The translations under genes were made by a program, and so were the position numbers. A DNA stretch of 64,000 nt from Deltaproteobacteria bacterium (GTDB lineage Bacteria > Desulfobacterota > Desulfomonilia > UBA1062), in NCBI GenBank assembly GCA_011046135.1, contig DSBG01000042.1:10184-74183 (forward strand), written 5' to 3'. The notes beneath the pieces were generated by a model, which saw only the letters and a list, made by a program, of their open reading frames with translations, made no database searches and was not told the DNA's origin. This document shows, piece by piece, positions 4,956-49,064 of the stretch (positions are counted from its first letter, which is position 1; every line of letters starts with the position of its first letter).

Positions 4956-5842
4956 ACCTCGCCTGCACGGCGAACCTGTTCTTTGAGTTTCTCAGCGAGA
5001 AGGGAACCCACCTCCGGAGTATCTCCTTTCAAGACCAGCTTCTCCACGGTTTTCTCGTCGCTCGTTGCGAGCATGCCCTCAATGATAATGAGTCCTTCCT
5101 GAAGATGTGCATATGCCCCCGCAGGGAGCCGGCAATCGAGGCCCAGCGTTCGGAGAAAGGCCCGCTCTGCTTCGGCACACAGATGCGTGGGGGGGTGATC
5201 CAGTGACGTTCCAAGCTCAACAAGCTCCCTGTCGTCGTTTCTGCACTCCACCGCGATGATCCCCTGACCTGGCGATGGTATCATCAAGCTGGGATCGATG
5301 GCAATACCCGGAGGAAGACCCAGTCTGTTCACACCGGCTTCGGCGAGGATCACTGCATCGACCTCTGCTCCCACTTTATTCAGCCTGGTGGGAACATTCC
5401 CCCGGATGTCCACAACGGCGAGATCTGGCCGGAAAGCCCTGATCTGACATCTGCGGCGCATGCTTGACGTGCCAACCGTGCTTCCCCGGGGCAGGGATTC
5501 GAGGGACTCGTTGTGTTGTGTAAAAATCATGTCACGATGACTTCCTCTCTCAAGGCAGGCACCGATGGTGAGTCCATCCGCGAGATTCGCCTGCATGTCT
5601 TTGAGACTGTGAACGGCGAAGTCGATCTTTGAGGAGAGCAGCTGTTCTTCGATGTCCTTGACAAAGACACCTTTCCCGCCGATGGCATCCAGCGGGAGAT
5701 CGGCGAGTTCGTCTCCACAGGTTTTGATCACGAAAATCTCGTAGCCATACCCCGGGTGACGGACTTCCATCTCCTTGAGAACCATGCGCGTCTGGGCAAG
5801 GGCGAGGGCACTACCTCTTGTTCCGATCCTGATAGTCCTCAT
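4952..5842 (-). CDS. hemC: Hydroxymethylbilane synthase
   Basis: IGTRGSALAL, GGKGVFVK, AVHSLKD, GTSSMRR, IRGNVPTRL, LGLDCRLP. Confidence 0.97.
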   Translation of the reverse strand: MRTIRIGTRGSALALAQTRMVLKEMEVRHPGYGYEIFVIKTCGDELADLPLDAIGGKGVFVKDIEEQLLSSKIDFAVHSLKDMQANLADGLTIGACLERGSHRDMIFTQHNESLESLPRGSTVGTSSMRRRCQIRAFRPDLAVVDIRGNVPTRLNKVGAEVDAVILAEAGVNRLGLPPGIAIDPSLMIPSPGQGIIAVECRNDDRELVELGTSLDHPPTHLCAEAERAFLRTLGLDCRLPAGAYAHLQEGLIIIEGMLATSDEKTVEKLVLKGDTPEVGSLLAEKLKEQVRRAGEV

Positions 5843-7046
5843 CGAGTTGAAAGATCCTCCGGGTATAGTCGATGTGTTTGATGTCCGGGTAGGCCCTGAG
5901 AAAGCTCACCGGCCTGTGGAGGAGTCTCCTCAGTGTCAGCCTGAGGGTTTCCTCCAGTGCTGTTCGCTGGTCGTCATCCAGAGGCATATTCCGGACCTGA
6001 TCCTCCACGTGGTTTTCTATGAGGGCAAAAAGATCCCTGATGGTGGTGGTTGCATCAAGGGCCCTGATCCAGCGATCGAACTTTTCCACCTCCTGATCGA
6101 TGATTTCACGAGCCCTGTCGATCTGATGTTCACGGTTGGTGTAGTGCCTGTCCACGATGGATTTCAGGGCATCGATGTCGTAGAGATAGCAGTTGTAGCA
6201 GCGACCGACTTCAGGGTCAACATCTCGCGGTACAGCGATATCGATGAGAATGATCGGACGGTTCTTGCGTTTTTTCATGACCGGTTCCATGAGTTCGTTC
6301 CCGATGATGGGCCGGGGTGACCCGGTGGAGGTGATCACGATATCGCTCGAAGCGAGTTCTTCCGCAAGGCTTTCAAAGGGTTTGGGGATACCGCCGAGTT
6401 CAGAGGCAAGATCGCACGCTACCCGATGCGTCCGGTTGACGATGCACAGTCTCTTGACCCCCCTGCTCTGGAGTCTTTTCGCTGCGATGCTCGCCATGTC
6501 ACCGGCCCCTACGACGAGCACGGAGCTCGTTGAGATGTCTCCGAAGATGTGGCCTGCAAGCTCCACCGCCTCTGAGGCGACGGATACCGGATAGGAGCCG
6601 ATGTCCGTTTCCGTACGGATCCGTTTCGCCGTACGGAAGGCACGGTGCAGGGCCCTGTTCAGAAGGGTTGAGGTGGTGTTTGCAGCGAGGGCATCACGAT
6701 AGGCATCCTTGACCTGTCCCAGGATCTGGGGTTCTCCGATGACCTGAGAATCGAGGCCTGAAGCGACCATGAACAGGTGGCGGATTGCCTCGCTGCCGCT
6801 GAATACCTGGGCAACTTCCCGAAGAACCCCGCTGTCGATTCCGCTTCGGTGTTCCAGGTACTTCTCGACCACGGAGATCTCGATACCGGTCCAGTAGATC
6901 TCTGTGCGGTTGCAGGTATTGAGCGTGTAGCACTCGGAGGAATCGCCCATGATCTCGAGCATGTCCTGAGGTGATAGGGAGAACTGTTCCCGGATTTCGA
7001 CAGGGGCATGTTTGTGGTTGATGCTTAAACAGGTGATACGCTGCAT
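5811..7046 (-). CDS. hemA: Glutamyl-tRNA reductase
   Basis: Start trimmed to MQRITCLSINHK (ATG 7046, TAATG overlap with upstream stop); TCNRTE, GEPQILGQVK, VGAGDM, DIAVPRDV. Confidence 0.95.
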   Translation of the reverse strand: MQRITCLSINHKHAPVEIREQFSLSPQDMLEIMGDSSECYTLNTCNRTEIYWTGIEISVVEKYLEHRSGIDSGVLREVAQVFSGSEAIRHLFMVASGLDSQVIGEPQILGQVKDAYRDALAANTTSTLLNRALHRAFRTAKRIRTETDIGSYPVSVASEAVELAGHIFGDISTSSVLVVGAGDMASIAAKRLQSRGVKRLCIVNRTHRVACDLASELGGIPKPFESLAEELASSDIVITSTGSPRPIIGNELMEPVMKKRKNRPIILIDIAVPRDVDPEVGRCYNCYLYDIDALKSIVDRHYTNREHQIDRAREIIDQEVEKFDRWIRALDATTTIRDLFALIENHVEDQVRNMPLDDDQRTALEETLRLTLRRLLHRPVSFLRAYPDIKHIDYTRRIFQLDEDYQDRNKR

Positions 7047-7858
7047 TACAGGAGGCCTATTCCATGGGCATGCGGGAAAGCAAGGTTCATCACGAGAAAG
7101 ACGACGAGCATCACGCAAAAGCCCACCAGCGTGATGATGGCGGTTCTGCGCCCTCTCCATCCAATGGCAAACCTCTGGTGGAGGCAGAAGGCAAACACCA
7201 CCCACATGAGAGCCCCTGCCATGATCTTGGGGGCGATACTGGAGAGCCTGAGGTCGATGGATGATGCCCACAATCCCCCGAGGATCATTCCGATGGTGAT
7301 GGCAACAAACCCCAGCGACAGGCAGGCGTACAAGAGGGAATCGAGAATGGACAGGGGGGGGAGGCCGGCTACGGGTGAATGGATGGTGCCTTTGTAGATG
7401 ATCCTTTCATGGACGAGGTAGACCAGGGACGTGATGAATGCCACCACGAACAGCGCCTCACCGCCGATGACGCTCAGGGTGTGCAGTGGATACCAGTACT
7501 GGTAGGAGTTCAGGAAGATGTCGGATCGTTGTGCGAGAGACGGCATGAGCAGGGCAAGGACGAACGTTGCGGGGGGGAGGAAGAAGACGGCAAGCGATGC
7601 GGTTCTTTTTCTCCAGGCAAGGACGAGAAACACTGCGGAGGCCAGGAAGATCACCATGTTCACGCCCTGGGCAGGGGAAACCAGGGGAATGGTGTTCAGT
7701 CGTGTTGCCAGGGAAAGGATGAGAAGGAAGTGACACGCCACAGAGATTGAGAACAGCACCTGTGCAAGCAGGATCCATGGCCTCGTTCTGAAAAACAGAG
7801 AGAGAATGTACGCAAGGCTCGCCAGCGTGTAGGCGGTCACTACTCCGAAGGCGATCAC
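7046..7858 (-). CDS. CcsA/HemX-like membrane protein
   Basis: About 8 hydrophobic segments, LHT and GWRGRR motifs, no clear WxWD motif; sits between sirC and hemA as is common in deltaproteobacteria. Confidence 0.8.
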   Translation of the reverse strand: MIAFGVVTAYTLASLAYILSLFFRTRPWILLAQVLFSISVACHFLLILSLATRLNTIPLVSPAQGVNMVIFLASAVFLVLAWRKRTASLAVFFLPPATFVLALLMPSLAQRSDIFLNSYQYWYPLHTLSVIGGEALFVVAFITSLVYLVHERIIYKGTIHSPVAGLPPLSILDSLLYACLSLGFVAITIGMILGGLWASSIDLRLSSIAPKIMAGALMWVVFAFCLHQRFAIGWRGRRTAIITLVGFCVMLVVFLVMNLAFPHAHGIGLL

Positions 7859-8522: not shown

Positions 8523-9281
8523 TCAGGCCACCTCTTTCAGCCAGCCTCGAATGATATCCAGGGTTCTCTCATCCTTCCTCAGCTGGTGTGCTGCTCCTTT
8601 GAGGATGGTGATCTTTTTGGGCTTGATGGCTGCTTCATAGAGGAGGTGTGCGTGGCTCACGGGAACGGTCTCATCACTGTCCCCATGCACGATATGGACG
8701 GGTCGCGGCGAGAGAAAGGGTATATTCAGGTCAGGGTTGAGCCTCGTGAAATCGTCATACCAGCGCCTGAGATCCGGTGGAAAATCCTTGTTTCTGATGA
8801 GACCCAACTCCATGAAGTGATCCCTGAGCAGCTGTGGATCCTCGGGCAGGATATCCGAGAAGCGGCACGGGGTTGCCATGAGGAGAAGACTCGCGATCTT
8901 TTTGTTGTAGGAGGCATAGTGTGTGGCAATGACCCCACCGGCAGAAAACCCGATGCAGTGGATCGAGGCCGGATCGATTTTCGGGGTGTCATAGACCTTT
9001 TCAACAATACAGGAGAGATCGAAGATCCAGCCTGACATGTCGATATTGCCCCCGGAGAGACCACATCCCCGGAAGTTGAAGAGAAAACAGCTGTATCCGT
9101 CTGCAGTGAGTTCTTCCACAAGGGGAAGGTACCCCCTGTCATCCGGGTTCGGTTTTGATCCGGGGATTCCATGGCAGAAGATAACCGCCGGAGGCAATCC
9201 CCTCGGGTGGTTCTCAGGGGAGTAGTGCCATACCCTGATACCTATCCCCTGGTGGGTGAGCTGAAACTCTCTCGATTTCAT
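8523..9281 (-). CDS. Alpha/beta-fold hydrolase
   Basis: HGIPG oxyanion motif, GFSAGG nucleophile elbow, HGDSDETVP and GAAH triad motifs. Confidence 0.9.
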   Translation of the reverse strand: MKSREFQLTHQGIGIRVWHYSPENHPRGLPPAVIFCHGIPGSKPNPDDRGYLPLVEELTADGYSCFLFNFRGCGLSGGNIDMSGWIFDLSCIVEKVYDTPKIDPASIHCIGFSAGGVIATHYASYNKKIASLLLMATPCRFSDILPEDPQLLRDHFMELGLIRNKDFPPDLRRWYDDFTRLNPDLNIPFLSPRPVHIVHGDSDETVPVSHAHLLYEAAIKPKKITILKGAAHQLRKDERTLDIIRGWLKEVA

Positions 9282-10398
9282 CTTCCAACAGTCTGTATTT
9301 TCTGTACACGAATGCCCACGACCTCAGCTCCTGTTCATCGAGAATGAGATCTTCATTGTCCGCATGTGATCGTACCGGGATCCTGTTGTTGCCCGCCAAG
9401 AGTCTCATGGACTGCAGGGGAATGTCAAGCAGGGCGGACGCCCTTTCAAGAGATACCCGGGACTTTTTTCCCCCTCCGACCTTCTTGAACACAAAGGTCT
9501 GGAGAATGGTCTTCTGGGTGGCATCAGCGTCTATGAGGTACGCCTTGTCCAGGATATCCACGTACTCTTCATCCATCTGATACCTGGTATTCGCAAATTC
9601 CACGAGAGCCCTGATATCATCCGGATACTGCTTGAGCAACCGTTTCAGGACCTGTGCTGCCTGTTCCATCTCGTTGAGGAAGAAGTGTATCTCGGCAAGG
9701 TAGAGGTACGTGTCCTTGTCCGTATCGCCCATCTCAAGGGCCTTCGAAAACATCTCAAGGGCGAGATCCAGATGGCCGAGTTCCCGGTGACATACCCCGA
9801 TGAGCTTGTAGATGCGAGGACTTGTAGAGCACAGTACATTGGCTTTTTCAAGGTCGTCGGCAGCAATGGTATAAAACCCCTGGGACATCTTGTCAGTAAC
9901 CCGCGACATGAATATTTTGAAGCGCTGCTCGAAATCTTTGCTGCTCAGGCTCTTGGACGGATCGGTGAAATGAAATCCCGAGGTGCACAGGTCGATGAAC
10001 TCCCTGTTTTCTGAAAGATTTTCTTCGGTTTCGAGGACCTCGATGACCCGTTGACAGAGGTTCTTGATGGGAAGGGCCGTAGCTGTTTTGTTGGTGACAA
10101 AGAGCCCGATTCCTAAAGATTCATTCTTTTCGATCTCAGAGAGATGTTTCGCCTCCGCGATGAGTTCCCTGAAGAAGATATTCGTCATGTCGCGGGAGTT
10201 TGTGATGGGAAGGACCATGGCGGATTTGTACTCTCCTCCCGGGCAGGTATATTCAAAACTCAGCCACAGTTCGTTGTATTCTGGATCGATTCTCTCGACC
10301 TCAACGGAGATCAGTTCGATGAGTCCCTTGGGTTGTTCAAGCTTGCCCCGCATGGATAAAGGTTTATTCCCTGGGGCCTGAAATGTCAACAGATTCAA
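9214..10398 (-). CDS. TPR protein with a C-terminal excisionase/MerR-like HTH (start uncertain; ATG 10353 is an alternative)
   Basis: TPR-like helices (YKLIGVCHRELGHLDLALEMFSKAL; YLYLAEIHF); C-terminal VSLERASALLDIPLQSMRLLAGNNRIP...LILDEQELRSW. Confidence 0.7.
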   Translation of the reverse strand: MNLLTFQAPGNKPLSMRGKLEQPKGLIELISVEVERIDPEYNELWLSFEYTCPGGEYKSAMVLPITNSRDMTNIFFRELIAEAKHLSEIEKNESLGIGLFVTNKTATALPIKNLCQRVIEVLETEENLSENREFIDLCTSGFHFTDPSKSLSSKDFEQRFKIFMSRVTDKMSQGFYTIAADDLEKANVLCSTSPRIYKLIGVCHRELGHLDLALEMFSKALEMGDTDKDTYLYLAEIHFFLNEMEQAAQVLKRLLKQYPDDIRALVEFANTRYQMDEEYVDILDKAYLIDADATQKTILQTFVFKKVGGGKKSRVSLERASALLDIPLQSMRLLAGNNRIPVRSHADNEDLILDEQELRSWAFVYRKYRLLEDEIERVSAHPPGDRYQGMALLP

Positions 10399-10478
10399 TC
10401 CTGATGGAGAAAAAAGCTCGGAAAATGACGTTGGAAAACACGGGAAAAGTATGGTAGCCTTGCTAAGGAGGAGATTTC

Positions 10479-11180
10479 ATGTTCCGGACGATACCATACT
10501 CCGTCGTGCTCTCGATGTTCATGCTGGCAGTGATGACCGGACTATGTCTCGCAGCCCCTCGGATCGAAATCGCTGAACCCCTCTTTGATGCAGGCGAGGT
10601 CCTGGAGGGAAAGGATGTTTCCCACGAATTTGTTCTCAAGAATATTGGCAGCGATCCCCTGATCGTAACCGTCAAGCCCTGCTGAGGGGTCAGAATACAT
10701 GCTCCGGGAGAGCATGAAATACAACCTGGGGAAACGAAGATGATCGAAGTCACCATGTCCACCAGGAATGCCAGGCATACCCTGAAACGACAGATCGACA
10801 TCAAGACAAATGACCCCGATGTTCCCGAGGTTTCAGTATACCTGCAGGCAACGGTTGTCGAAATGCTCTCCGTAAGCCCGCCGATACTGAACTTCGGAAA
10901 GGTGAGGCAGGGGTTGACCTATACAAAAGAACTCACCCTTACGAACACCTCGAAAACGGTCCTCGTCATATCCGGGATAGAGGGCAACCCGCCTGCCGTT
11001 CTCAACGTGTCAGCTGAGTGCCCCATCACCATCGAACCCGGACAAAGTCACACGATGACCGTGACGCTCGCTCCAGGATCCACAAAAAGCAGATTCCACG
11101 GATATATTTCCATCCTGACAGAGCTGGAATTTCTCCCCAGAAAGATCCTCCGGGTTGCGGCACAGATATCCAGAGAATAA
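10479..11180 (+). CDS. Exported DUF1573-like/Ig-fold protein, predicted selenoprotein (UGA at codon 69, VKPC-U-GVR)
   Basis: ORFs 10479-10685 and 10740-11180 are in one frame separated only by TGA 10683-10685; read-through gives a continuous DUF1573-like domain (FDAGEV...HEFVLKNIG..PL.VTVKPCUG...IQPGETKMIEV...TNDP); signal peptide; downstream hairpin. Confidence 0.85.
10698..10716 (+). promoter_or_regulatory. Bacterial SECIS-like stem-loop
   Basis: Perfect 7-bp stem CATGCTC/GAGCATG with CGGGA loop; loop starts 20 nt after the UGA. Confidence 0.75.
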
Positions 11181-11189
11181 CTCTTCGAT

Positions 11190-12761
11190 GTGAAGACCGA
11201 AAGCGTCCATACCAGGATGACGGTAGACAGCTTCAAGAGAAATGCAGTAACCGTGGGCGGCTTCACCGGTGTCAGCAGGATTCTCGGATTTGTCCGCGAT
11301 GTGGTCATGGCCTGGCTTCTCGGAGCAGGCCTTCTCGCCGATGCATTCATCGTCGCATTCAGGCTTCCCAACCTCCTTCGCAGGTTCATGGCCGAAGGTG
11401 CCGTGAGTGTCGCCTTCGTGCCGGTTTTTTCCGAGGTGAGGGCTCGCCAAGGGATCGAGAAGGCCTTCGAGCTCTCCCGGAGCATCTTCACCCTGATGTT
11501 TCTCCTGCTCGTGATTGTGGTCATTGTGGGAGAGTTGATCGCTCCCGCTCTGGTCGCCCTCATTGCCCCTGGATTTCTCAACCAGCCGGTTTTCGCTGAG
11601 GCCGTGCATCTGACCAGAATCATGTTTCCCTACATTCTCCTGATCGGAATCGTATCACTGTGTATGGGGATTCTCAATTCCCTCGGACATTTTGCCGCCC
11701 CCGCAGCCTCACCGATTCTCTTGAATGTCTTCATGATCTCTGTGCCGATCATCTTCCATGTTCTCGTCCCGGTCTTTTCATCGCCCGCGGATGCGCTGGC
11801 GGTGGGGGTGATCCTTGGAGGCATTGCCCAGCTTGCCATCCAGATCGTTCCGTTGAGACGGCGCAAGGTCCCCCTCGGTTTCAGCAGAGATCTCGGCAAT
11901 CCCCGGGTCAGGCAGGTGTCACGATTGATGGGAATCTCTGCCCTGGGAGCATCGGTCTACCAGATCAACGTCTTTGTGGGAACCCTGCTCGCTTCGCTCT
12001 TGGCCACGGGGAGCGTTTCCTATCTGTACTATGCCAACAGGATCACTGAACTTCCCCTGGGCATCTTTGCCTTTGCCGTGGGCAATGTCATGCTGCCAGC
12101 CATGAGCAGTGCCTCGGCGAATATGGACCTGGATAAGGTTTCCTCTCTCCTGAAAAGAGCGATATCAGCCGTGTCTCTCTTCGTCATTCCTGCTTCTGTG
12201 GGAATCTTCGTGCTGGCTGAGCCCATCTTCGCCGTTCTCTTCATGCGCGGCCAGTTCAGCGCGAGTGATGTCAGCGCGTCGGCGTATGCCCTCCAGATGT
12301 ACACCCTTGGTCTGTGTGCGGTAGGGTGGTCGCGGATCTTCACCCAGGCGCTCTATGCCATGCAACGGGCTGGCCTCGTGGTAAAAGTTGCCTGGCTCAC
12401 CCTCGGGTTGAACGTGATCCTGTGCCTGGTGCTCATGCCGGTGATGAACCATGCAGGCATTGCCCTGGCCAGCAGCCTCTCCATGTTTTTCCAGCTGGTT
12501 GTCCTCGCTCGGTCCCTCACCGGCAACGGGGTGAGCGCATGGAGCGGCCACTGGAGATCGTTTCTGAAGATGACGGGTGCCGCACTTGTTATGGGTGCGT
12601 TCCTGCTGCCGTTTCTGAGGATGGAATTCTGGATGGAGGGATTCACGGTCTTCAGCGCCGGGATATTGATTTTCTGTATCATCATGGGAGCGCTGCTCTA
12701 CTTTGGCCTGCTCCGTATCATGGGCATCCCCGTCACATGGAAAGGATCTCCTTCGGGGTAA
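11190..12761 (+). CDS. murJ: Lipid II flippase MurJ (MviN)
   Basis: SRILGFVRD, AFRLPNLLRRFMAEGA, YLYYANRITELPLG; many TM segments. Confidence 0.96.
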   Translation: MKTESVHTRMTVDSFKRNAVTVGGFTGVSRILGFVRDVVMAWLLGAGLLADAFIVAFRLPNLLRRFMAEGAVSVAFVPVFSEVRARQGIEKAFELSRSIFTLMFLLLVIVVIVGELIAPALVALIAPGFLNQPVFAEAVHLTRIMFPYILLIGIVSLCMGILNSLGHFAAPAASPILLNVFMISVPIIFHVLVPVFSSPADALAVGVILGGIAQLAIQIVPLRRRKVPLGFSRDLGNPRVRQVSRLMGISALGASVYQINVFVGTLLASLLATGSVSYLYYANRITELPLGIFAFAVGNVMLPAMSSASANMDLDKVSSLLKRAISAVSLFVIPASVGIFVLAEPIFAVLFMRGQFSASDVSASAYALQMYTLGLCAVGWSRIFTQALYAMQRAGLVVKVAWLTLGLNVILCLVLMPVMNHAGIALASSLSMFFQLVVLARSLTGNGVSAWSGHWRSFLKMTGAALVMGAFLLPFLRMEFWMEGFTVFSAGILIFCIIMGALLYFGLLRIMGIPVTWKGSPSG

Positions 12762-16494: not shown

Positions 16495-17601
16495 TTAGGA
16501 AAACGTGATGTCTGTGTAGGGCATCTCCAGGCTCATAGCCAATGCGCGGTACGTAATGGCGCCTTTATACACATTGAGACCATGTGCAATGGCCGGATCT
16601 TCGAAGGCAGCAGGAATGCCCATCGAGGCGATTTTCGCGGCGTAGGGAAGGGTTGCCCCTGAAAGTCCCCAGGTGGCGGTGATGGGGACGCTCCCCGGCA
16701 TGTTAGCCACGCAGTAGTGTATGATGCCTTCTTCCTGGTACACAGGATTGTCATGATGGGTCGGTCGGGATGTCTCACAACACCCCCTCTGATCAACGGA
16801 GACATCGACGATCACCGAAGCGTGCTTCATGGTGAGGAGATTTTCTCTTCTGACTATCTTTGGTGTCGATGCTCCGGGGATGAGTACTGCCCCGATGACA
16901 AGATCCGCATTCTGGATGCACTTGGCCAGAGAATCAGGTGTGGAGAAGAGGGTGTCTATTCCCGAGCCGAACCGTGCGACGAGATACTGCAGTCTGGTCT
17001 TGTCTCTTTCGAGAACGGAAACGCGTGCACCCATCCCGGTGGCGATTTCTGCTGCGTTGATTCCTACCGTCCCGCCTCCGATGATGAGGACAGATCCCCG
17101 TTCCACCCCCGGGATTCCCCCGAGCAGGATGCCTCAGCCGCCATGAATCTTTTCGAGGTATCTGGATCCCTGCTGTACCGAGAGCTTGCCTGCTATCTCG
17201 CTCATGGGTTCGAGGAGAGGGAGATGGCCATCAGGCTGTTGTACGGTCTCAAATGCAATGGAGGTAACGCCACGGGAGAGGAGAATTTCGGTAAGGGGTT
17301 GATTTGCTGCCAAGTGGAGGTAACAGAACAGGATCTGATCCTCTCTGAGGAGATCGTATTCCTGAGCCAGAGGGCCTTTCACCTTATAGATCATCTCGGA
17401 AGAGCCATAGACCTCTTCGGCTGTGTCCAGGCAGACTGCTCCAGCTCTTCGGTAGTCCTCGTCACTGAGTGAGCATCCCTGCCCCGCCCCTCGCTCAATA
17501 AACACGTGGTGACCTGCATCGAGAAGCGTTTGTACCCCGGCGGGGGTAATGGAAACCCGGTATTCCTGGGGTGTAATCTCACGTGGTATGCCGATGTTCA
17601 T
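16495..17601 (-). CDS. ald: Alanine dehydrogenase, full-length frame (368 codons) interrupted by one in-frame TGA at codon 156 (Sec or nonsense)
   Basis: IGIPRE...[23 protein letters not shown], then [40 protein letters not shown]; both track ORFs share a frame. Confidence 0.85.
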
Positions 17602-44886: not shown

Positions 44887-45435
44887 TCACACACTGGTGA
44901 GGGTATATCGGTTCAGGACGAGGTGCTTGCCCGGAGTGCCTTTCGTGATCGCTGCATCGATCCTGAAGGAACCACCCAGGTTGAGTTCCTGGTCCAACGT
45001 GGCAATGTAGTAGAAGCGTCCATTGGTTACGAGAATTCTCAAGAGGGCCTTTTCAAGATTCTTCTGCGGGGAAAAGGCCCGAGAAATAACCGCTTCGTAC
45101 GGTCCGATTCTGGCGCATAGCGGATCTGTCTGCAGTACTTCGATGTCAGCGAGACCAAGGAGATCGATCACATGCTGCAGAAAGGTACTTTTCCCGGCGC
45201 TGCGTTCAATGAGGGTCACCCGTGAATCAGGATGCACGATTTTGTAGGGGATCCCGGGCAGCCCTGATCCTGAACCCAGATCTGCGAGTTCAGGTTCTCT
45301 CACCTGCTCAAGGAGTTCCATGCAGTCGAGAACATGATATTCCAGATCCCTGAGAAACACGGGACTCACCAGGTGAAGCCTCGTGTTGTACCGCCGTATC
45401 TCTTCGATCCAGAGCCTGATCTGGTCCTGCATCAC
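44887..45435 (-). CDS. rsmG: 16S rRNA m7G527 methyltransferase
   Basis: YHVLDC, ADLGSGSGLPGIP, LIERSAGK, ISRAF. Confidence 0.9.
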   Translation of the reverse strand: MMQDQIRLWIEEIRRYNTRLHLVSPVFLRDLEYHVLDCMELLEQVREPELADLGSGSGLPGIPYKIVHPDSRVTLIERSAGKSTFLQHVIDLLGLADIEVLQTDPLCARIGPYEAVISRAFSPQKNLEKALLRILVTNGRFYYIATLDQELNLGGSFRIDAAITKGTPGKHLVLNRYTLTSV

Positions 45436-46754
45436 TTCCCCACACAGAAATCGCTGAACACCAGATCGAGGATGTCCGGGCTTATCTCTTCTCCCGTGAG
45501 TTCCTTCAGTGCCGAATAGGCATCCTGGAGATCGATGGTAATAACGTCTGGTGTCACACCTGCCTGTAAGCCATCGATGCCCGTTTCCAGGCTTCTGAGA
45601 ACCCTGCCCAGAAGTCCGAGGTGCCGTTCAAGAAACACTTCGGGTCGTGCCTCGGGAAAGATTTGCTCCATGATTTTCAGGAGCGAATCGATCCCTGTTG
45701 CGTATTTTGCCGAGATGAACACTACGGGAAAGATCTCTTCGCCACCTACAGGAGGAATCTCTTCAAGGAGGTCCATTTTGTTCATGACGAGGATGGTTTT
45801 TTTCCCCAGGGGTAACCACGTTTTTTCATGAGGCTGTAATCCGGATCGGGCATCCACAACGTAGAGCACGAGGTCGGATGATTCCAATGCCTCAAGGGTA
45901 CGTTCTACCCCCAGTCTTTCCGGGCCTGAAGGGGTTTCCCTGATTCCTGCGGTATCGTGGAAGATGAACTCGAGATCTCCACAGATGAGGTGTTCTGTGA
46001 GTGTATCCCGTGTCGTCCCTTCCTCTTCATGGACGATGGCCCGGGGATATCCCAGGAGGGCATTGAACAGGGATGATTTTCCTGCGTTGGGTAATCCTGC
46101 GATCGTGGTGATAATTCCCCTGCTGAGGACGGTGGCTTCGCGAGAAGATGCGATCATCTCTCGCAGCTCGTCGGTGAGCCGAGAAAGGTCTGTTGTGAGC
46201 ACCTCGGGAGAGAAGGGAGCATCTTCGGTGATGAATGATGCCTCTAGTGATGTGAGAGCCTCTGCGAGGAGGTTTTTCATGGGAACGAACCTCCGTGACA
46301 GCTCTCCCGCGGCGAGCGATTTGGCCAGTTCATATCCGACTGGGGTTCCGGCTCCGATCAAGGCCCCCACGGCTTCAGCCTGGAGCAGGTCGATCTTGCC
46401 GTTCAAAAATGCCCTTTTGGTGAATTCGCCTGGCTGGGCCTTTCGTACGAGACCTGTGCTTTCGATGGAATCCATGATCTTCTGTACGATGAGGGGATTG
46501 CCGTGGCAGCTTATCTCGACCAGGTCTTCCCCGGTGTATGACCGTGGAGTTGGATGAAAGACGCACATGACCTGATCGATGAGTGCCCCCTCTTTGTCGA
46601 GAAGAGCGTTGAGGTGCTGCTCATGGGGAACCAAACCGGCATTAGGCATGATCATGCACAGAATATCCCGGGTGTTCGGTCCGCTCAGGCGGATGATGCT
46701 GATCGCACCGATCCCCCTCGGGGTGGCCTGGGCGTAGATGGTGTCGATACTTAT
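45432..46754 (-). CDS. mnmE: tRNA modification GTPase MnmE (inferred ATA start at 46754)
   Basis: SIDTIYAQATPRGIGAISIIRLSG lies upstream of the track start; SYTGEDLVEISCHG, GLPNAGKSS, GTTRD, DTAGIR, NKMD, FCVGK. Confidence 0.95.
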   Translation of the reverse strand: MSIDTIYAQATPRGIGAISIIRLSGPNTRDILCMIMPNAGLVPHEQHLNALLDKEGALIDQVMCVFHPTPRSYTGEDLVEISCHGNPLIVQKIMDSIESTGLVRKAQPGEFTKRAFLNGKIDLLQAEAVGALIGAGTPVGYELAKSLAAGELSRRFVPMKNLLAEALTSLEASFITEDAPFSPEVLTTDLSRLTDELREMIASSREATVLSRGIITTIAGLPNAGKSSLFNALLGYPRAIVHEEEGTTRDTLTEHLICGDLEFIFHDTAGIRETPSGPERLGVERTLEALESSDLVLYVVDARSGLQPHEKTWLPLGKKTILVMNKMDLLEEIPPVGGEEIFPVVFISAKYATGIDSLLKIMEQIFPEARPEVFLERHLGLLGRVLRSLETGIDGLQAGVTPDVITIDLQDAYSALKELTGEEISPDILDLVFSDFCVGK

Positions 46755-47467
46755 TTCAATGCCTTTCTTGGAACGATAAGAATCTTCTTGTAGAGCCCTT
46801 CACCGATACTCTTGGTGTTTACGCTGCTGTCGTTTTTGAGCGTCAAGTGAATGATGCGTCGGTCATAGGGATTCATTTTCTCCAGAGAGATGGACTGCCC
46901 GGTTTTCTTGGCCTTCTGGCCCATATTGATGGCGATGGACTTCAGGTAACTCATGTGGCGCTGTCGGTATCCCTCAGTGTCCAGTGTGACATAGACCGGC
47001 TCCTGCCGTGTCTTGTTGAGAATTCTGTTCAGGATGAACTGCAGCGCGTCCAGGGTTTGCCCTTGTTTCCCGATAATGATCCCGGAACCGTCCCCGATCA
47101 GCTCAAGAGTTTTGGTATCACGAACCTTGAAAGAGCAGGCAATGTTCATTCGTGCCAGGATCTCGGAAACGATCTCCTGTGCCTTCGTGAGCACCTCATC
47201 ATCGTGTGGGGGTATGCCGGGTGAGGGTTCGCTTTCCGGGGCTGCACGCTCTGGCGCAGTGTCTTCTCCCGGTTGTGCCACTCGTGCAGGGCGGGCTTTG
47301 ATCTTTGCTGTCTTGGCACCCACCAGGCCGAACAGACCTTTGGATCCTTCAGAGAGCACCTGAATTTCGAGGTTCTCGAACGTTGACCTGAATGACTGCA
47401 TCGCCTGTACTATGGCCTCGTCCACGGTTGTTGCTTCGAATTCTCTGTAGTCGTTGTCCATGAGCAT
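46751..47467 (-). CDS. jag: Jag/KhpB (EloR) RNA-binding protein
   Basis: SKGLFGLVG, IIGKQGQTLDALQ (KH), RRIIH (R3H). Confidence 0.95.
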   Translation of the reverse strand: MLMDNDYREFEATTVDEAIVQAMQSFRSTFENLEIQVLSEGSKGLFGLVGAKTAKIKARPARVAQPGEDTAPERAAPESEPSPGIPPHDDEVLTKAQEIVSEILARMNIACSFKVRDTKTLELIGDGSGIIIGKQGQTLDALQFILNRILNKTRQEPVYVTLDTEGYRQRHMSYLKSIAINMGQKAKKTGQSISLEKMNPYDRRIIHLTLKNDSSVNTKSIGEGLYKKILIVPRKALK

Positions 47468-47471
47468 TCTC

Positions 47472-49064
47472 CTACGTGAGTTTCCTGTTGATATAGGCCT
47501 GCTGGATGATCGAAAGGATATTGCTCACCAGCCAGTAGAGCACAAGGCCCGATGGAAAACTCAGGAACAGAAACGTGAACACGACGGGCATCATGAGCAT
47601 GATCTTCTGCTGAGTCGGATCCCCTGCAGTTGGAGTCATTTTCTGCATGACAAACTGACTGAGACCCATAAGGACGGGAGTGATGAAGTACGGGTCTTTG
47701 GCCGAGAGATCAGGCAGCCATGTTCCGATGATGTGGAAGGGAGTGTGTCTCAATTCGATGGCTGAGTAGAACACCTTGTACAGGGCGAAAAGGATAGGGA
47801 TCTGGAGCAACATCGGCAGGCATCCGCCCAGCGGGTTGATTTTGTGCTCCGAGTAGAGCTTCATGAGTTCCTGGTTCAGTTTTTGTTTGTCATCCTTGTA
47901 CTTTGCCTGGAGTTCTTTCATCAGCGGCTGTATCTTCTGGAGCCCTTTCATCGAAGCGAAGCTCTTGAACGTCAGGGGGTACAGGATGATCTTGATGAAG
48001 ATGGTCAGGATAATGATGGACAGCCCGTAACTACCCACGTAGGACTGGATCCAATTCATGGATATCAGGAGGGGCTTTGCAATGAGGTCGAAAAATCCGA
48101 AGTCCAAGGCTCTGTGGAGATCGAATCCTACGTCTTTGAGGATCTTGATGTTCTTGGGGCCCAGAAAGATCAGATGATCGTGGCTCTGCGAAGAGCCACT
48201 TCTGATCTGTGCCGTCGGGACGGAGTAGGCCAGTGATACGATATTCTCATCGGTGCGAGTTATTCTCACCTGTGTTTCAAAGATCTCCAAGGGGATGATC
48301 GTGTGCAGGAAGTACTTTTCTTCAATGCCGAACCATTTGATTTCCCCGGGAAAGTCCCGATAGGTTCCAACGGTTTTCACCTTGTCCACCTTGAATTCCT
48401 CGAGATGTTTTCCGTGGAGCAGAACCGGTCCCTCGAAGGCATAGCCTTTCTTTTTCTCGTCCATGGGATAGCGCGCATTGAGGACCTGATCATAGGAGAG
48501 AGACAGGGGACTCATGGTGTTATTGATAAACTCGGTGCGGTACTCCAAGAGGTAGTTCAGGGGGTCTATCCGATAGATTTTTTTCAGGATAATTCCCTTA
48601 GAGACTTCTGACGTGAAGACGAGTTCGAAAGGTTTTTCGGCGGCATGAATCAGTCCGGTGTGTGAGGGTTCGAATACCAAGGCAGCGTCAGAAAAACCCT
48701 CGCTTGTCACGATCTGTGGGAACGGTGACCTGACCATCTCAACAGGGGGCGCGTCTGCACCGATGGTCTGTTTGTACTCCTTCAGCTGGAAGGACACGAT
48801 CTGTGCCCCCTTCGTGTTCCAGGTGGCGCGATAGAGCGGTGTCTCCACATAAATGGCTTCTCCTGAGGCCTTTTCGCTTTCAAACGAGGGCGACGAGGGG
48901 GGGTCGAATAGGGAGGGGAGTTCTTCCTGCACCTGTTTCTCTACCTGAGGCTTCTCCGTCTGAACTGGTTCAGTCTGTGGTTTTCTCGGTTGGATGAAGA
49001 AGACATCCCATGCGATCAGGATGGCAATCGAAATGATTATAGCAAGTAGGGTTTTTTTCTCCAT
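47472..49064 (-). CDS. yidC: Membrane protein insertase YidC
   Basis: DFGFF, YGLSIIILT, NPLGGCLPMLLQIP, FPSGLVLYW. Confidence 0.98.
   Translation of the reverse strand: MEKKTLLAIIISIAILIAWDVFFIQPRKPQTEPVQTEKPQVEKQVQEELPSLFDPPSSPSFESEKASGEAIYVETPLYRATWNTKGAQIVSFQLKEYKQTIGADAPPVEMVRSPFPQIVTSEGFSDAALVFEPSHTGLIHAAEKPFELVFTSEVSKGIILKKIYRIDPLNYLLEYRTEFINNTMSPLSLSYDQVLNARYPMDEKKKGYAFEGPVLLHGKHLEEFKVDKVKTVGTYRDFPGEIKWFGIEEKYFLHTIIPLEIFETQVRITRTDENIVSLAYSVPTAQIRSGSSQSHDHLIFLGPKNIKILKDVGFDLHRALDFGFFDLIAKPLLISMNWIQSYVGSYGLSIIILTIFIKIILYPLTFKSFASMKGLQKIQPLMKELQAKYKDDKQKLNQELMKLYSEHKINPLGGCLPMLLQIPILFALYKVFYSAIELRHTPFHIIGTWLPDLSAKDPYFITPVLMGLSQFVMQKMTPTAGDPTQQKIMLMMPVVFTFLFLSFPSGLVLYWLVSNILSIIQQAYINRKLT

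What the first reader, a model, noticed from the sequence alone, without database searches (positions are those of the whole stretch)
10479..11180. Hidden exported selenoprotein with a vicinal Cys-Sec (PC-U-G) motif, directly upstream of murJ
Seen in sequence: the two track ORFs are one frame broken only by TGA 10683-10685. Read-through gives a 233-aa protein with a signal peptide and VTVKPC-U-GVRIHAPGEHEIQPGETK. A perfect CATGCTC-cggga-GAGCATG hairpin has its G-containing loop 20 nt after the UGA. murJ starts 9 nt after the stop. Established: bacterial SECIS elements lie just 3' of the UGA inside the ORF, and DUF1573 domains usually carry an xxCGC motif here. Inference: Sec replaces the first Cys, the second Cys is lost, and an extra Cys precedes Sec. 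The resulting adjacent C-U pair resembles the GCUG redox tail of animal thioredoxin reductase, but on a periplasmic Ig-fold protein, possibly linked to envelope biogenesis. Sec-containing DUF1573 homologues may already be catalogued; the CU variant and the murJ link are the unusual parts.
Basis: partly seen in the sequence, partly recalled or inferred. Interest (0 to 1): 0.75.

Follow-up and report, generated by a model that had tools for sequence, protein, structure and literature searches.

The report
Unannotated exported Cys-Sec DUF1573 selenoprotein
Two small genes that public annotation treats as separate are really one gene for an exported protein containing the rare amino acid selenocysteine; it is a new branch of an already catalogued selenoprotein family, and its function is still unknown.

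Summary
Window 10479-11180 (+) is one reading frame broken only by TGA 10683-10685. Read through, it gives a 233-aa precursor: a signal peptide, a DUF1573 Ig-like domain that spans the TGA, and a second Ig-like domain.

The same TGA sits at the same codon in 10 distinct sequences (39-56% protein identity to the window). Each has a 5-7-bp hairpin with loop CGGGA or CGGGC 19 nt downstream. The hairpin meets the published bacterial SECIS criteria and shows compensatory changes at 3 of 6 pairs. TGA is also the commonest ordinary stop in the window (31 of 51 genes), so the recoding is local. Selenocysteine insertion is the best explanation.

What is known already: DUF1573/OS_HP2 selenoproteins (UGC motif) and Cys-Sec dipeptides in other bacterial selenoproteins. 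What is new: a [C/S]-U-G-[V/I] clade that scores below NCBI's OS_HP2 cut-off and is truncated in every public gene call I saw.

Two caveats. The preceding Cys is Ser in one lineage. The murJ adjacency holds in only one syntenic group (5 of 8 lineages). Function is unknown, and Sec machinery could not be checked in this genome.

The parts
10465..10473 (+). Shine-Dalgarno sequence AAGGAGGAG; its GGAGG core (10467-10471) lies 7 nt upstream of the ATG
   Evidence: Read directly from the sequence.
10479..11180 (+). Complete selenoprotein coding sequence: 233 codons plus TAA, with UGA at codon 69 read as Sec
   Evidence: Single frame with one internal TGA. Non-synonymous change is far below synonymous change on both sides of the TGA against the L001 orthologue. 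The same architecture occurs in nine further distinct sequences.
10479..10556 (+). Signal peptide, residues 1-26, with predicted signal peptidase I cleavage after C-L-A
   Evidence: Inspection only; no predictor was run. It has a basic n-region, a hydrophobic core and an A-x-A-type site that is conserved as CSA|AP or VYA|AP in orthologues.
10566..10829 (+). DUF1573 (PF07610) Ig-like domain, residues 30-117; it spans the TGA
   Evidence: Pfam match E=4.3e-22, 78.4 bits against a cut-off of 26.1. NF041425 OS_HP2 gives 72.6 bits, below its cut-off of 100.
10680..10691 (+). Motif Cys68 (TGC) - Sec69 (TGA 10683-10685) - Gly70 - Val71, which aligns to the S-C-G-C turn of Cys homologues
   Evidence: Profile HMM built from 19 CGC homologues. 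TGA is present at this codon in all 10 clade sequences. In the AlphaFold model of Cys homologue P0165, S-C-G-C is a 4-residue turn between two strands.
10698..10716 (+). SECIS upper stem-loop: 7-bp stem with apical loop CGGGA (10705-10709)
   Evidence: Meets the published bSECIS criteria: spacing 19 nt, 5-nt loop, G at loop position 2 followed by G, and -8.5 kcal/mol for the hairpin alone (criteria from PMC13188914). Covariation at 3 of 6 pairs, with 0 of 500 shuffles reaching the observed score. RNAalifold predicts it independently. Pro76 is CCG in 9 of 9 sequences.
10687..10727 (+). Possible extended SECIS: a lower 4-bp stem (10687-10690 with 10724-10727) enclosing the upper hairpin
   Evidence: Minimum-free-energy fold of -12.4 to -12.8 kcal/mol. 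Lower stems also form in other lineages but are not in register, so this part is weak.
10848..11114 (+). Second Ig-like domain (choice-of-anchor D / ASH type), residues 124-212
   Evidence: NF012200 at 67.3 bits against a cut-off of 45; PF15780 ASH E=2e-10.
11190..12761 (+). murJ (lipid II flippase family), 9 nt downstream and probably co-transcribed
   Evidence: Pfam MurJ on the orthologues, which are 68-77% identical. No terminator-like site lies between the two genes. Co-transcription is an inference.
9214..10398 (-). Divergently transcribed TPR-repeat gene, a conserved neighbour within the syntenic group
   Evidence: 84% and 73% identical to the neighbours in L001 and L011.

Best explanation
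Window 10479-11180 is one gene for a genuine bacterial selenoprotein.

How it is made: during translation the hairpin at 10698-16, 19 nt after UGA 10683-85, acts as a bacterial SECIS element. It recruits SelB carrying Sec-tRNA(Sec), so codon 69 is read as selenocysteine instead of stop. The 233-aa precursor is exported through the Sec pathway, and its signal peptide is cut after Ala26. That leaves a protein of about 207 aa with two Ig-like domains in the periplasm or envelope.

Where the Sec sits: Sec69 takes the place of the first Cys of the S-C-G-C turn that marks DUF1573 domains. The second Cys has become Val, and the Ser before it has become Cys in most lineages. The exposed turn therefore carries an adjacent Cys-Sec pair.

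What is shown: the frame, the conserved UGA, hairpin covariation, domain membership and the motif alignment.

What is inferred: export, co-transcription with murJ, and the chemistry. My best guess for the chemistry is that the turn is a selenol-based redox or soft-metal/chalcogen-binding site, with Sec as the nucleophile and Cys-1 as a dispensable helper. The biological role is unknown.
For: Coding on both sides of the TGA:
- Single frame with one TGA.
- Both halves are under purifying selection against the L001 orthologue: pN 0.18-0.28 against pS 0.58-0.78.
- The DUF1573 domain spans the TGA.
- The 18 codons between the TGA and the first ATG are conserved, and codon 71 is GTC here, so there is no restart codon.

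Conservation of the TGA:
- TGA sits at the same codon in 10 distinct sequences from Desulfomonilia and Thermodesulfobacteriota MAGs and metagenomes, at 39-56% protein identity to the window.
- All homologues outside the clade have Cys at this position.
- TGA is the normal stop for 31 of 51 window genes, so there is no genome-wide reassignment.

The hairpin:
- It meets all four published bSECIS criteria in the window and in L001 (PMC13188914).
- 3 of 6 pairs show compensatory double changes; the covariation score of 0.294 was reached by 0 of 500 shuffles, and slid controls gave 0.06 or less.
- RNAalifold finds it independently.
- Pro76 in the loop is CCG in 9 of 9 sequences, while five other invariant prolines use 3-4 codons each.

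Precedent and host:
- DUF1573/OS_HP2 is a catalogued selenoprotein family with Sec at this same Cys (PMC1976440, PMC2398784, PMC13188914).
- The class uses Sec: Desulfomonile tiedjei selD carries a Sec codon, and D. tiedjei has an SO_0444 selenoprotein (PMC5389517; bioRxiv 10.1101/2022.07.06.499078).

Structure:
- In the AlphaFold model of Cys homologue P0165 (pLDDT 92), S-C-G-C is a 4-residue turn between strands.
Against: - No selA, selB, selD or tRNA-Sec lies in the 64-kb window, and the rest of the genome could not be searched.
- No Rfam SECIS family matches. This is expected, because bacterial SECIS elements are diverse.
- Part of the hairpin's conservation is confounded by the conserved A-P-G-G peptide it encodes.
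- The whole-region fold is not unusual for its composition (z = -0.54).
- No experimental evidence of selenium incorporation exists.
- The proposed chemistry has no direct support. Gene contexts of DUF1573 proteins are heterogeneous, and the Cys next to Sec is Ser in L016/L017.
- Export is judged by eye; no signal-peptide predictor was available.
Confidence: 0.85

Rival explanations
1. The UGA is recoded through the SECIS and a SelB-like factor, but as cysteine rather than selenocysteine. A tRNA(Sec)-like tRNA-Cys with a UCA anticodon (selC*) and a second SelB (SelB*), described in some deltaproteobacterial groups, would do this and give a Cys-Cys pair.
For: PMC5389517 reports selC* tRNA-Cys next to selB* in Syntrophobacterales and Desulfobacterales and shows that such a tRNA can read UGA as Cys in E. 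coli. The sequence features seen here (UGA plus hairpin) would look the same under this reading.
Against: The natural function of selC*/SelB* is unproven. It was not reported for Desulfomonilia, and no such genes are in the window. If Cys were wanted, a TGC or TGT codon would do, yet no clade member has Cys at this codon (10 of 10 are TGA). DUF1573 Sec forms are accepted selenoproteins (PMC13188914).
Confidence: 0.04
2. The TGA is a real stop. The locus would then be either two separate small genes (a 68-aa exported peptide and a 146-164-aa protein), a pseudogene, or an assembly error. This is how public annotation treats it.
For: Every public gene call is split into a 68-aa ORF plus a 145-173-aa ORF. 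Another gene in the window, ald, carries an in-frame TGA that looks like a nonsense change.
Against: - The Ig-like DUF1573 domain spans the TGA and could not fold from either half.
- The window has no start codon for 18 conserved codons after the TGA.
- The frame and the TGA persist in 10 sequences that are saturated at synonymous sites.
- The hairpin covaries.
- A pseudogene would accumulate further stops and frameshifts.
Confidence: 0.03
3. The gene is a selenoprotein, and its role is tied specifically to MurJ and peptidoglycan precursor export. For example, it could be a periplasmic selenol/thiol redox partner or sensor acting on the flippase or on lipid II.
For: - murJ follows within 9-31 nt in five lineages (window, L001, L008, L011, L023), with no terminator-like site between the genes in the window.
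- The window also holds other envelope genes: a class A PBP, LysM/SLT proteins and lptE.
- One Bacteroidota Cys homologue sits next to an alpha-2-macroglobulin gene.
Against: - In those five lineages the whole neighbourhood of about 12 kb is syntenic (hem genes, TPR, GAF-GGDEF-HD, sigma-54 regulator), so adjacency may simply reflect shared ancestry.
- In L009, L014 (three paralogues) and L016 the gene is followed instead by unrelated lipoproteins and large TPR proteins, with no murJ.
- The Cys homologues examined are next to RNase D and an inositol phosphatase, rhodanese and MauE, or a PRTase.
Confidence: 0.12

Closest known systems
DUF1573 / OS_HP2 family selenoproteins (PF07610; NCBIfam NF041425; motif UGC). 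First predicted in Olavius symbiont and ocean metagenomes.
   Same: Same domain family (Pfam 78.4 bits). Sec occupies the same position, the first Cys of the S-C-G-C turn. Both are signal-peptide-bearing Ig-like proteins of unknown function and occur in deltaproteobacteria-type anaerobes.
   Different: The motif is [C/S]-U-G-[V/I] rather than U-G-C: the +2 Cys is lost in all members, and a -1 Cys is gained in all but one lineage. All clade members score 69-78.5 bits against NF041425, below its cut-off of 100, whereas the nearest Cys homologues pass. No Cys form exists inside the clade.
Bacterial selenoproteins with a Cys-Sec (CU) dipeptide: SaoL (MerB-like), SaoC, SaoB (CUxxT), HgcA, MbdU, KCU-star and the Csac_0668 2Fe-2S protein
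   Same: They have adjacent Cys-Sec, and they were typically truncated at the UGA in databases until recognised (PMC13188914; bioRxiv 10.1101/2022.07.06.499078). Many of them are implicated in metal or organometallic chemistry, which suggests one possible role for the pair here.
   Different: The folds and gene contexts are unrelated. Here the CU pair sits in a beta-turn of an exported Ig-like domain, and the Cys is not invariant.
C-terminal Gly-Cys-Sec-Gly redox tail of animal thioredoxin reductase
   Same: Adjacent Cys-Sec followed by Gly. In principle the pair could form a selenenylsulfide (established chemistry for TrxR; inference only here).
   Different: The motif here is internal (residue 69 of 233), not a flexible C-terminal tail. 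There is no flavoprotein domain. It is extracytoplasmic. It is preceded by Pro or Arg, not Gly. The Cys is replaced by Ser in one lineage.
CxC-to-UxC selenoprotein variants: SO_0444 Cu/Zn efflux transporter (CSC to USC, found in Desulfomonile tiedjei) and UGC-containing TlpA-family proteins
   Same: Sec replaces the first Cys of a C-x-C motif, in the same bacterial class (bioRxiv 10.1101/2022.07.06.499078; PMC13188914).
   Different: These are different protein families, and they keep the +2 Cys.

Membership tests
Bacterial selenoprotein gene (SelB/SECIS-dependent UGA recoding) | In-frame UGA with protein-coding signal on both sides | tested here: met
   pN far below pS upstream and downstream; the domain spans the UGA.
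Bacterial selenoprotein gene (SelB/SECIS-dependent UGA recoding) | UGA conserved in orthologues and aligned to Cys in homologues | tested here: met
   10 of 10 clade sequences have TGA. Homologues outside the clade have Cys there.
Bacterial selenoprotein gene (SelB/SECIS-dependent UGA recoding) | bSECIS hairpin with a 3-9-nt loop, 4-16-bp stem, G in the first two loop positions, 16-37 nt after the UGA, and free energy of -7.5 kcal/mol or lower | tested here: met
   5-nt loop CGGGA, 7-bp stem, spacing 19 nt, -8.5 kcal/mol for the hairpin and -12.4 kcal/mol for the 45-nt fold. Covariation.
Bacterial selenoprotein gene (SelB/SECIS-dependent UGA recoding) | selA, selB, selC and selD present in the same genome | not testable with these tools
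   None are in the 64-kb window, and the rest of the genome is not available. There is class-level support only, from D. tiedjei (PMC5389517).
Bacterial selenoprotein gene (SelB/SECIS-dependent UGA recoding) | Selenium demonstrated in the protein | not testable with these tools
   Needs 75Se labelling or mass spectrometry.
DUF1573 (Pfam PF07610) | Score above the Pfam gathering threshold | tested here: met
   78.4 bits against 26.1.
OS_HP2 family (seleno)protein, NCBIfam NF041425 | Score at or above the curated cut-off of 100 bits | tested here: not met
   Window 72.6 bits; four other clade members 69-78.5 bits. Cys homologues P0165 (114.8) and P0163 (100.5) pass.
Catalogued DUF1573 selenoprotein subfamily (motif UGC) | Sec at the first Cys of the CGC motif | tested here: met
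   Profile alignment S-C-G-C to C-U-G-V (window, L001) and S-U-G-V (L016).
Catalogued DUF1573 selenoprotein subfamily (motif UGC) | Cys retained at +2 (U-G-C) | tested here: not met
   Val or Ile at +2 in all 10 sequences.
Thioredoxin-reductase-type GCUG redox tail | C-terminal penultimate Sec on a pyridine nucleotide-disulfide oxidoreductase | tested here: not met
   Sec is residue 69 of 233, and only Ig-like domains were found.
Thioredoxin-reductase-type GCUG redox tail | Invariant Cys adjacent to Sec | tested here: not met
   Ser-Sec in L016/L017.
Choice-of-anchor D domain (NF012200) | Score above the cut-off, for the C-terminal domain | tested here: met
   67.3 bits against 45.

The most novel reading that the evidence does not exclude
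The Cys-Sec turn could be a periplasmic selenenylsulfide redox switch (or a soft-metal/chalcogen sensor) on an Ig-fold protein, made from the same transcript as MurJ. It would couple lipid II flipping or envelope assembly to the extracytoplasmic redox or selenium state. That would be a selenoprotein with a direct role in cell-wall biogenesis, which to my knowledge has not been described.
Probability: 0.07. Interest if true: 0.75.

Novelty: new variant of a known kind. Interest (0 to 1): 0.42.

Why it matters
1. Annotation. Every public gene call I saw for this clade, including NCBI records named 'choice-of-anchor D' or 'DUF1573 domain-containing protein', is split at the UGA. The clade also falls below the cut-off of the NCBIfam model that would flag it. 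So a whole branch of selenoproteins in Desulfomonilia and Thermodesulfobacteriota goes uncounted.

2. Motif evolution. The clade shows a C-x-C motif turning into a Cys-Sec dipeptide: the +2 Cys is lost, a -1 Cys is gained, and one lineage keeps the ancestral Ser. That is a natural experiment on which partner thiol a Sec needs.

3. Function of DUF1573. This is a large family of unknown function. A branch in which the motif residue is always Sec argues that this turn is the functional, probably catalytic or ligand-binding, site, and it gives a specific residue to mutate.

The finding does not open a new kind of biology. Sec-containing DUF1573 proteins, exported selenoproteins and bacterial CU motifs are all known.

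Tried and rejected
- Rfam, at gathering thresholds over the whole window and at permissive E-values over 10640-10800, gave no SECIS family, only noise hits to snoRNA and miRNA models.
- ARAGORN found no tRNA, and so no tRNA-Sec, in the window.
- Pfam annotation of about 40 further window genes found only housekeeping and envelope genes, with no selA, selB or selD.
- Scans of genome contigs and metagenome contigs with a two-sequence profile returned only the already known L001 contig and one distant CGC homologue. The back-translated patterns were narrow, so this does not show absence.
- The search of protein representatives and structure prediction refuse the read-through sequence, because it is not an exact window ORF. 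I searched with the post-UGA fragment instead. Giant Ig-repeat proteins swamped the results, but the search still surfaced P0083 and P0143, which opened up the clade. I modelled the Cys homologue P0165 as a proxy.
- PDB searches by sequence and by fold gave only HYDIN/ASH-type Ig domains and 2qsv, of unknown function. Neither gave a functional lead.
- A search for a conserved functional partner failed. Neighbours differ between the lineage groups and among the Cys homologues. Rhodanese plus MauE next to P0003 did not recur.
- Genome-wide TGA reassignment is rejected, because TGA terminates 31 of 51 window genes.
- A lipoprotein reading of the window protein is rejected. The residues before Cys23 (T-G-L) do not fit a lipobox, and L011 has no Cys there.
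Full report
**1. Observation**

Window 10479-11180 on the + strand is a single reading frame interrupted only by TGA 10683-10685. Mechanical ORF listing gives a 68-aa ORF (10479-10685) and, in the same frame, a 146-aa ORF from the first downstream ATG (10740-11180).

Read through, the product is 233 aa. It begins MFRTIPYSVVLSMFMLAVMTGLCLA|APRIEIAEP and contains ...VTVKPC-U-GVRIHAPGEHEIQPGETK. A strong Shine-Dalgarno sequence, AAGGAGGAG, precedes the ATG.

murJ can start at GTG 11190, 9 nt after the TAA.

**2. What the protein is**

With Cys placed at codon 69, Pfam finds DUF1573 (PF07610, E=4e-22, residues 30-117), so the domain spans the TGA. It also finds HYDIN/ASH-type Ig matches over residues 124-216.

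NCBIfam gives 'OS_HP2 family (seleno)protein' NF041425 at 72.6 bits, below its cut-off of 100. It gives choice-of-anchor D at 67.3 bits, above its cut-off of 45.

OS_HP2 is the name given to a DUF1573 selenoprotein family predicted in Olavius symbiont and ocean metagenomes. Its motif is UxC, or more exactly UGC (PMC1976440, PMC2398784, PMC9312934, PMC13188914 Table 1). Sec-containing DUF1573 proteins are therefore already catalogued.

**3. Is the TGA translated?**

*Orthologues.* The first protein search found only fragments. One was a 163-aa protein from a Desulfomonilia MAG. Its contig (L001) has the same gene order as the window, and it has a 68-aa ORF ending in TGA directly before the 163-aa ORF. 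Read through, it gives KPC-U-GVKIAAPGGQE at 56% identity.

An exhaustive search with the post-UGA fragment, followed by a profile search, turned up more truncated ORFs of 145-173 aa. All of them start one or two codons after the same point. Fetching their contigs showed an upstream short ORF ending in TGA in every case.

In total there are 10 distinct sequences:
- window, L001, L008, L011 (identical in L012 and L013) and L023;
- L009 (identical in L010);
- three paralogues on one 110-kb scaffold (L014; one of them is also on L015);
- L016 (identical in L017; a Thermodesulfobacteriota MAG).

All have TGA at the same codon.

*Selection.* Between the window and L001, synonymous sites are near saturation (pS 0.58-0.78) while pN is 0.18-0.28 on both sides of the TGA.

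*No alternative start or code.* The window has no start codon for 18 conserved codons after the TGA. TGA is also the ordinary stop of 31 of the 51 window genes I tallied, so the genetic code is standard and the recoding must be local.

**4. The hairpin**

A recent review gives four criteria for the bacterial SECIS model: a 3-9-nt loop, a 4-16-bp stem, a G in the first two loop positions (usually followed by G or U), and 16-37 nt between the UGA and the loop, with free energy of -7.5 kcal/mol or lower (PMC13188914).

The window element has a 5-nt loop CGGGA, a 7-bp stem, 19-nt spacing and -8.5 kcal/mol for the hairpin alone (-12.4 for the 45-nt fold). L001 has a 6-bp stem with the same loop and spacing, at -9.5 and -17.0 kcal/mol.

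By my simplified test, 3.9% of all TGA triplets in the window pass, so one hairpin means little. The whole 76-nt region also folds no better than shuffles (z = -0.54).

The comparative evidence is what counts. Across nine aligned sequences:
- three of the six core pairs keep pairing through changes on both sides (A-U/C-G; U-A/G-C/G-U; U-A/C-G);
- the covariation score is 0.294, against 0.093 ± 0.039 for shuffles (0 of 500 reach it);
- sliding the partner strand by 1-3 columns gives 0.06 or less;
- RNAalifold predicts the same helix independently.

Some of the compensating changes alter amino acids (His/Ala, Glu/Gly, His/Gln). One pairs a synonymous Ala change with a Glu-to-Gly change.

The hairpin encodes the conserved peptide A-P-G-G, which confounds simple conservation. 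However, Pro76 is CCG in 9 of 9 sequences, whereas five other invariant prolines use three or four codons each. That points to constraint at the RNA level.

**5. Motif alignment**

The nearest full-length homologues all carry S-C-G-C-T at this spot, with rare S-C-S-C and T-C-D-C variants. I built a profile HMM from 19 non-redundant CGC homologues and aligned the clade to it with an unbiased X at the Sec position.
- Window and L001: S to Cys68, first C to Sec69, G to Gly70, second C to Val71.
- L016: S to Ser, C to Sec, G to Gly, C to Val.
- L009 and L014b were placed less cleanly.

L016/L017 read K-P-S-U-G-V. In that lineage the ancestral Ser is retained, so the adjacent Cys is not essential.

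In an AlphaFold2 model of the closest two-domain Cys homologue, P0165 (mean pLDDT 92), S-C-G-C forms the 4-residue turn between strands 77-84 and 89-93. By homology, C68-U69-G70-V71 form that turn here.

**6. Context**

Five lineages share a long syntenic block: window, L001, L008, L011 and L023. The block runs hemC, hemA, a ccsA-like gene, a sirohaem synthase gene, a hydrolase gene and a TPR gene on the minus strand. The selenoprotein gene, murJ, a GAF-GGDEF-HD gene and a sigma-54 response regulator gene follow on the plus strand.

In this block the selenoprotein gene ends 9-31 nt before murJ. No terminator-like site intervenes in the window. MurJ and the TPR protein are 68-84% identical between these lineages, against 39-56% for the selenoprotein.

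In L009, L014 and L016 there is no murJ. The gene is followed there by related lipoproteins of about 300-416 aa with no Pfam match and by a 620-650-aa TPR protein. On L014 the cassette is present three times.

Cys homologues sit beside RNase D and an inositol phosphatase (P0004), rhodanese and MauE (P0003), a phosphoribosyltransferase (P0165), or an alpha-2-macroglobulin and IspH (P0207).

No partner is conserved across the family. The murJ link is best read as lineage synteny, possibly an operon, and not as evidence of shared function.

**7. Sec machinery**

None is present in the window: no tRNA, no Rfam hit and no sel genes among about 50 annotated ORFs. The rest of the genome is not available to me.

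The closest named relatives are Desulfomonilia MAGs, a class of Thermodesulfobacteriota. The type genus of that class uses Sec. Desulfomonile tiedjei selD has a Sec codon at position 15 (PMC5389517), and D. tiedjei has an SO_0444-family selenoprotein (bioRxiv 10.1101/2022.07.06.499078).

The same paper, PMC5389517, describes tRNA(Sec)-like tRNA-Cys(UCA) genes with a second selB in related orders. That leaves a small chance that the UGA is read as Cys.

**8. Mechanism and function**

*Shown:* one gene, a conserved UGA, a covarying SECIS-type hairpin, DUF1573 membership, and Sec at the family's first motif Cys.

*Inferred from established knowledge of bacterial Sec insertion:* SelB carrying Sec-tRNA(Sec) binds the hairpin and decodes the UGA.

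*Inferred from sequence inspection:* Sec-pathway export and cleavage after Ala26.

*Function:* the function of DUF1573 is unknown, and the PDB searches gave no lead. Because the motif residue is Sec in every clade member, the turn is probably the active or ligand-binding site.

Both models for the chemistry are untested here:
- the CxC/UxC precedents (the SO_0444 metal transporter, TlpA-like UGC proteins);
- the bacterial CU precedents, many of which are implicated in metal or organometallic chemistry (PMC13188914).

I put about even odds on thiol/selenol redox versus soft-metal or chalcogen binding. I give a specific MurJ-linked role about 0.1.

**9. Novelty and verdict**

The selenoprotein call is sound (about 0.85-0.9). 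It is not a new kind of thing: Sec-containing DUF1573 proteins, exported selenoproteins and bacterial Cys-Sec dipeptides are all described.

What appears new is a distinct clade with the motif [C/S]-U-G-[V/I].
- It has no Cys form among its members.
- It scores below the NCBIfam OS_HP2 cut-off.
- It is split into two ORFs in every public call I examined, including the window's own record.

The 2026 review treats families with a different Sec motif as separate subfamilies, so this is a new variant of a known kind. Interest is moderate.

Noticed in passing
window 16495-17601 (- strand); TGA at 17134-17136: The alanine dehydrogenase gene is split by an in-frame TGA at codon 156 (…EKIHGG*GILLGG…). 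The L001 orthologue has Arg (CGC) there. A 6-bp hairpin with loop GGAAU lies 15 nt downstream, but it is not conserved in L001, where the same G-G-I-P-G codons fold differently. This is most likely a nonsense change, an assembly error or a recent pseudogene rather than Sec, because TGA replaces Arg and not Cys.
   Followed up: partly
L014 979-1689, 5791-6501, 8212-8949: One 110-kb metagenome scaffold carries three paralogous copies of the Cys-Sec DUF1573 gene, each with its own TGA and hairpin. The copies are interleaved with related lipoprotein genes of about 300-415 aa with no Pfam match and with TPR genes of about 630-650 aa. This repeated cassette suggests a different functional context from the murJ-linked copies.
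   Followed up: partly
L016 221-223 (and L017 84-86): In a Thermodesulfobacteriota MAG the residue before Sec is Ser (TCT), giving K-P-S-U-G-V. Its hairpin is weakened to 5 pairs including a G-U. This looks like the intermediate state between S-C-G-C and C-U-G-V.
   Followed up: yes
L007 4640-6709: A CGC-type DUF1573 gene (P0003) is followed directly by a rhodanese gene and a MauE-family membrane protein gene. This hints at sulfur or redox chemistry for the motif, but it did not recur in the other Cys-homologue loci examined.
   Followed up: partly
L021/L022 1-5065: In Prevotella-type genomes the 354-aa DUF1573 protein (two DUF1573 domains) lies directly after an 1825-aa bacterial alpha-2-macroglobulin gene.
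   Followed up: no
window 44887-49064 (- strand): A yidC - jag/khpB - mnmE - rsmG gene run, which often lies near the replication origin. The 49.1-49.9-kb gap upstream of it was not examined for rnpA, rpmH or dnaA boxes.
   Followed up: no
window 5811-7271 (- strand): The mechanical hemA ORF is 486 aa, against 411 aa for the called orthologues in L001 and L011. It also overlaps the ccsA-like gene, so the listed GTG start is probably too far upstream.
   Followed up: no
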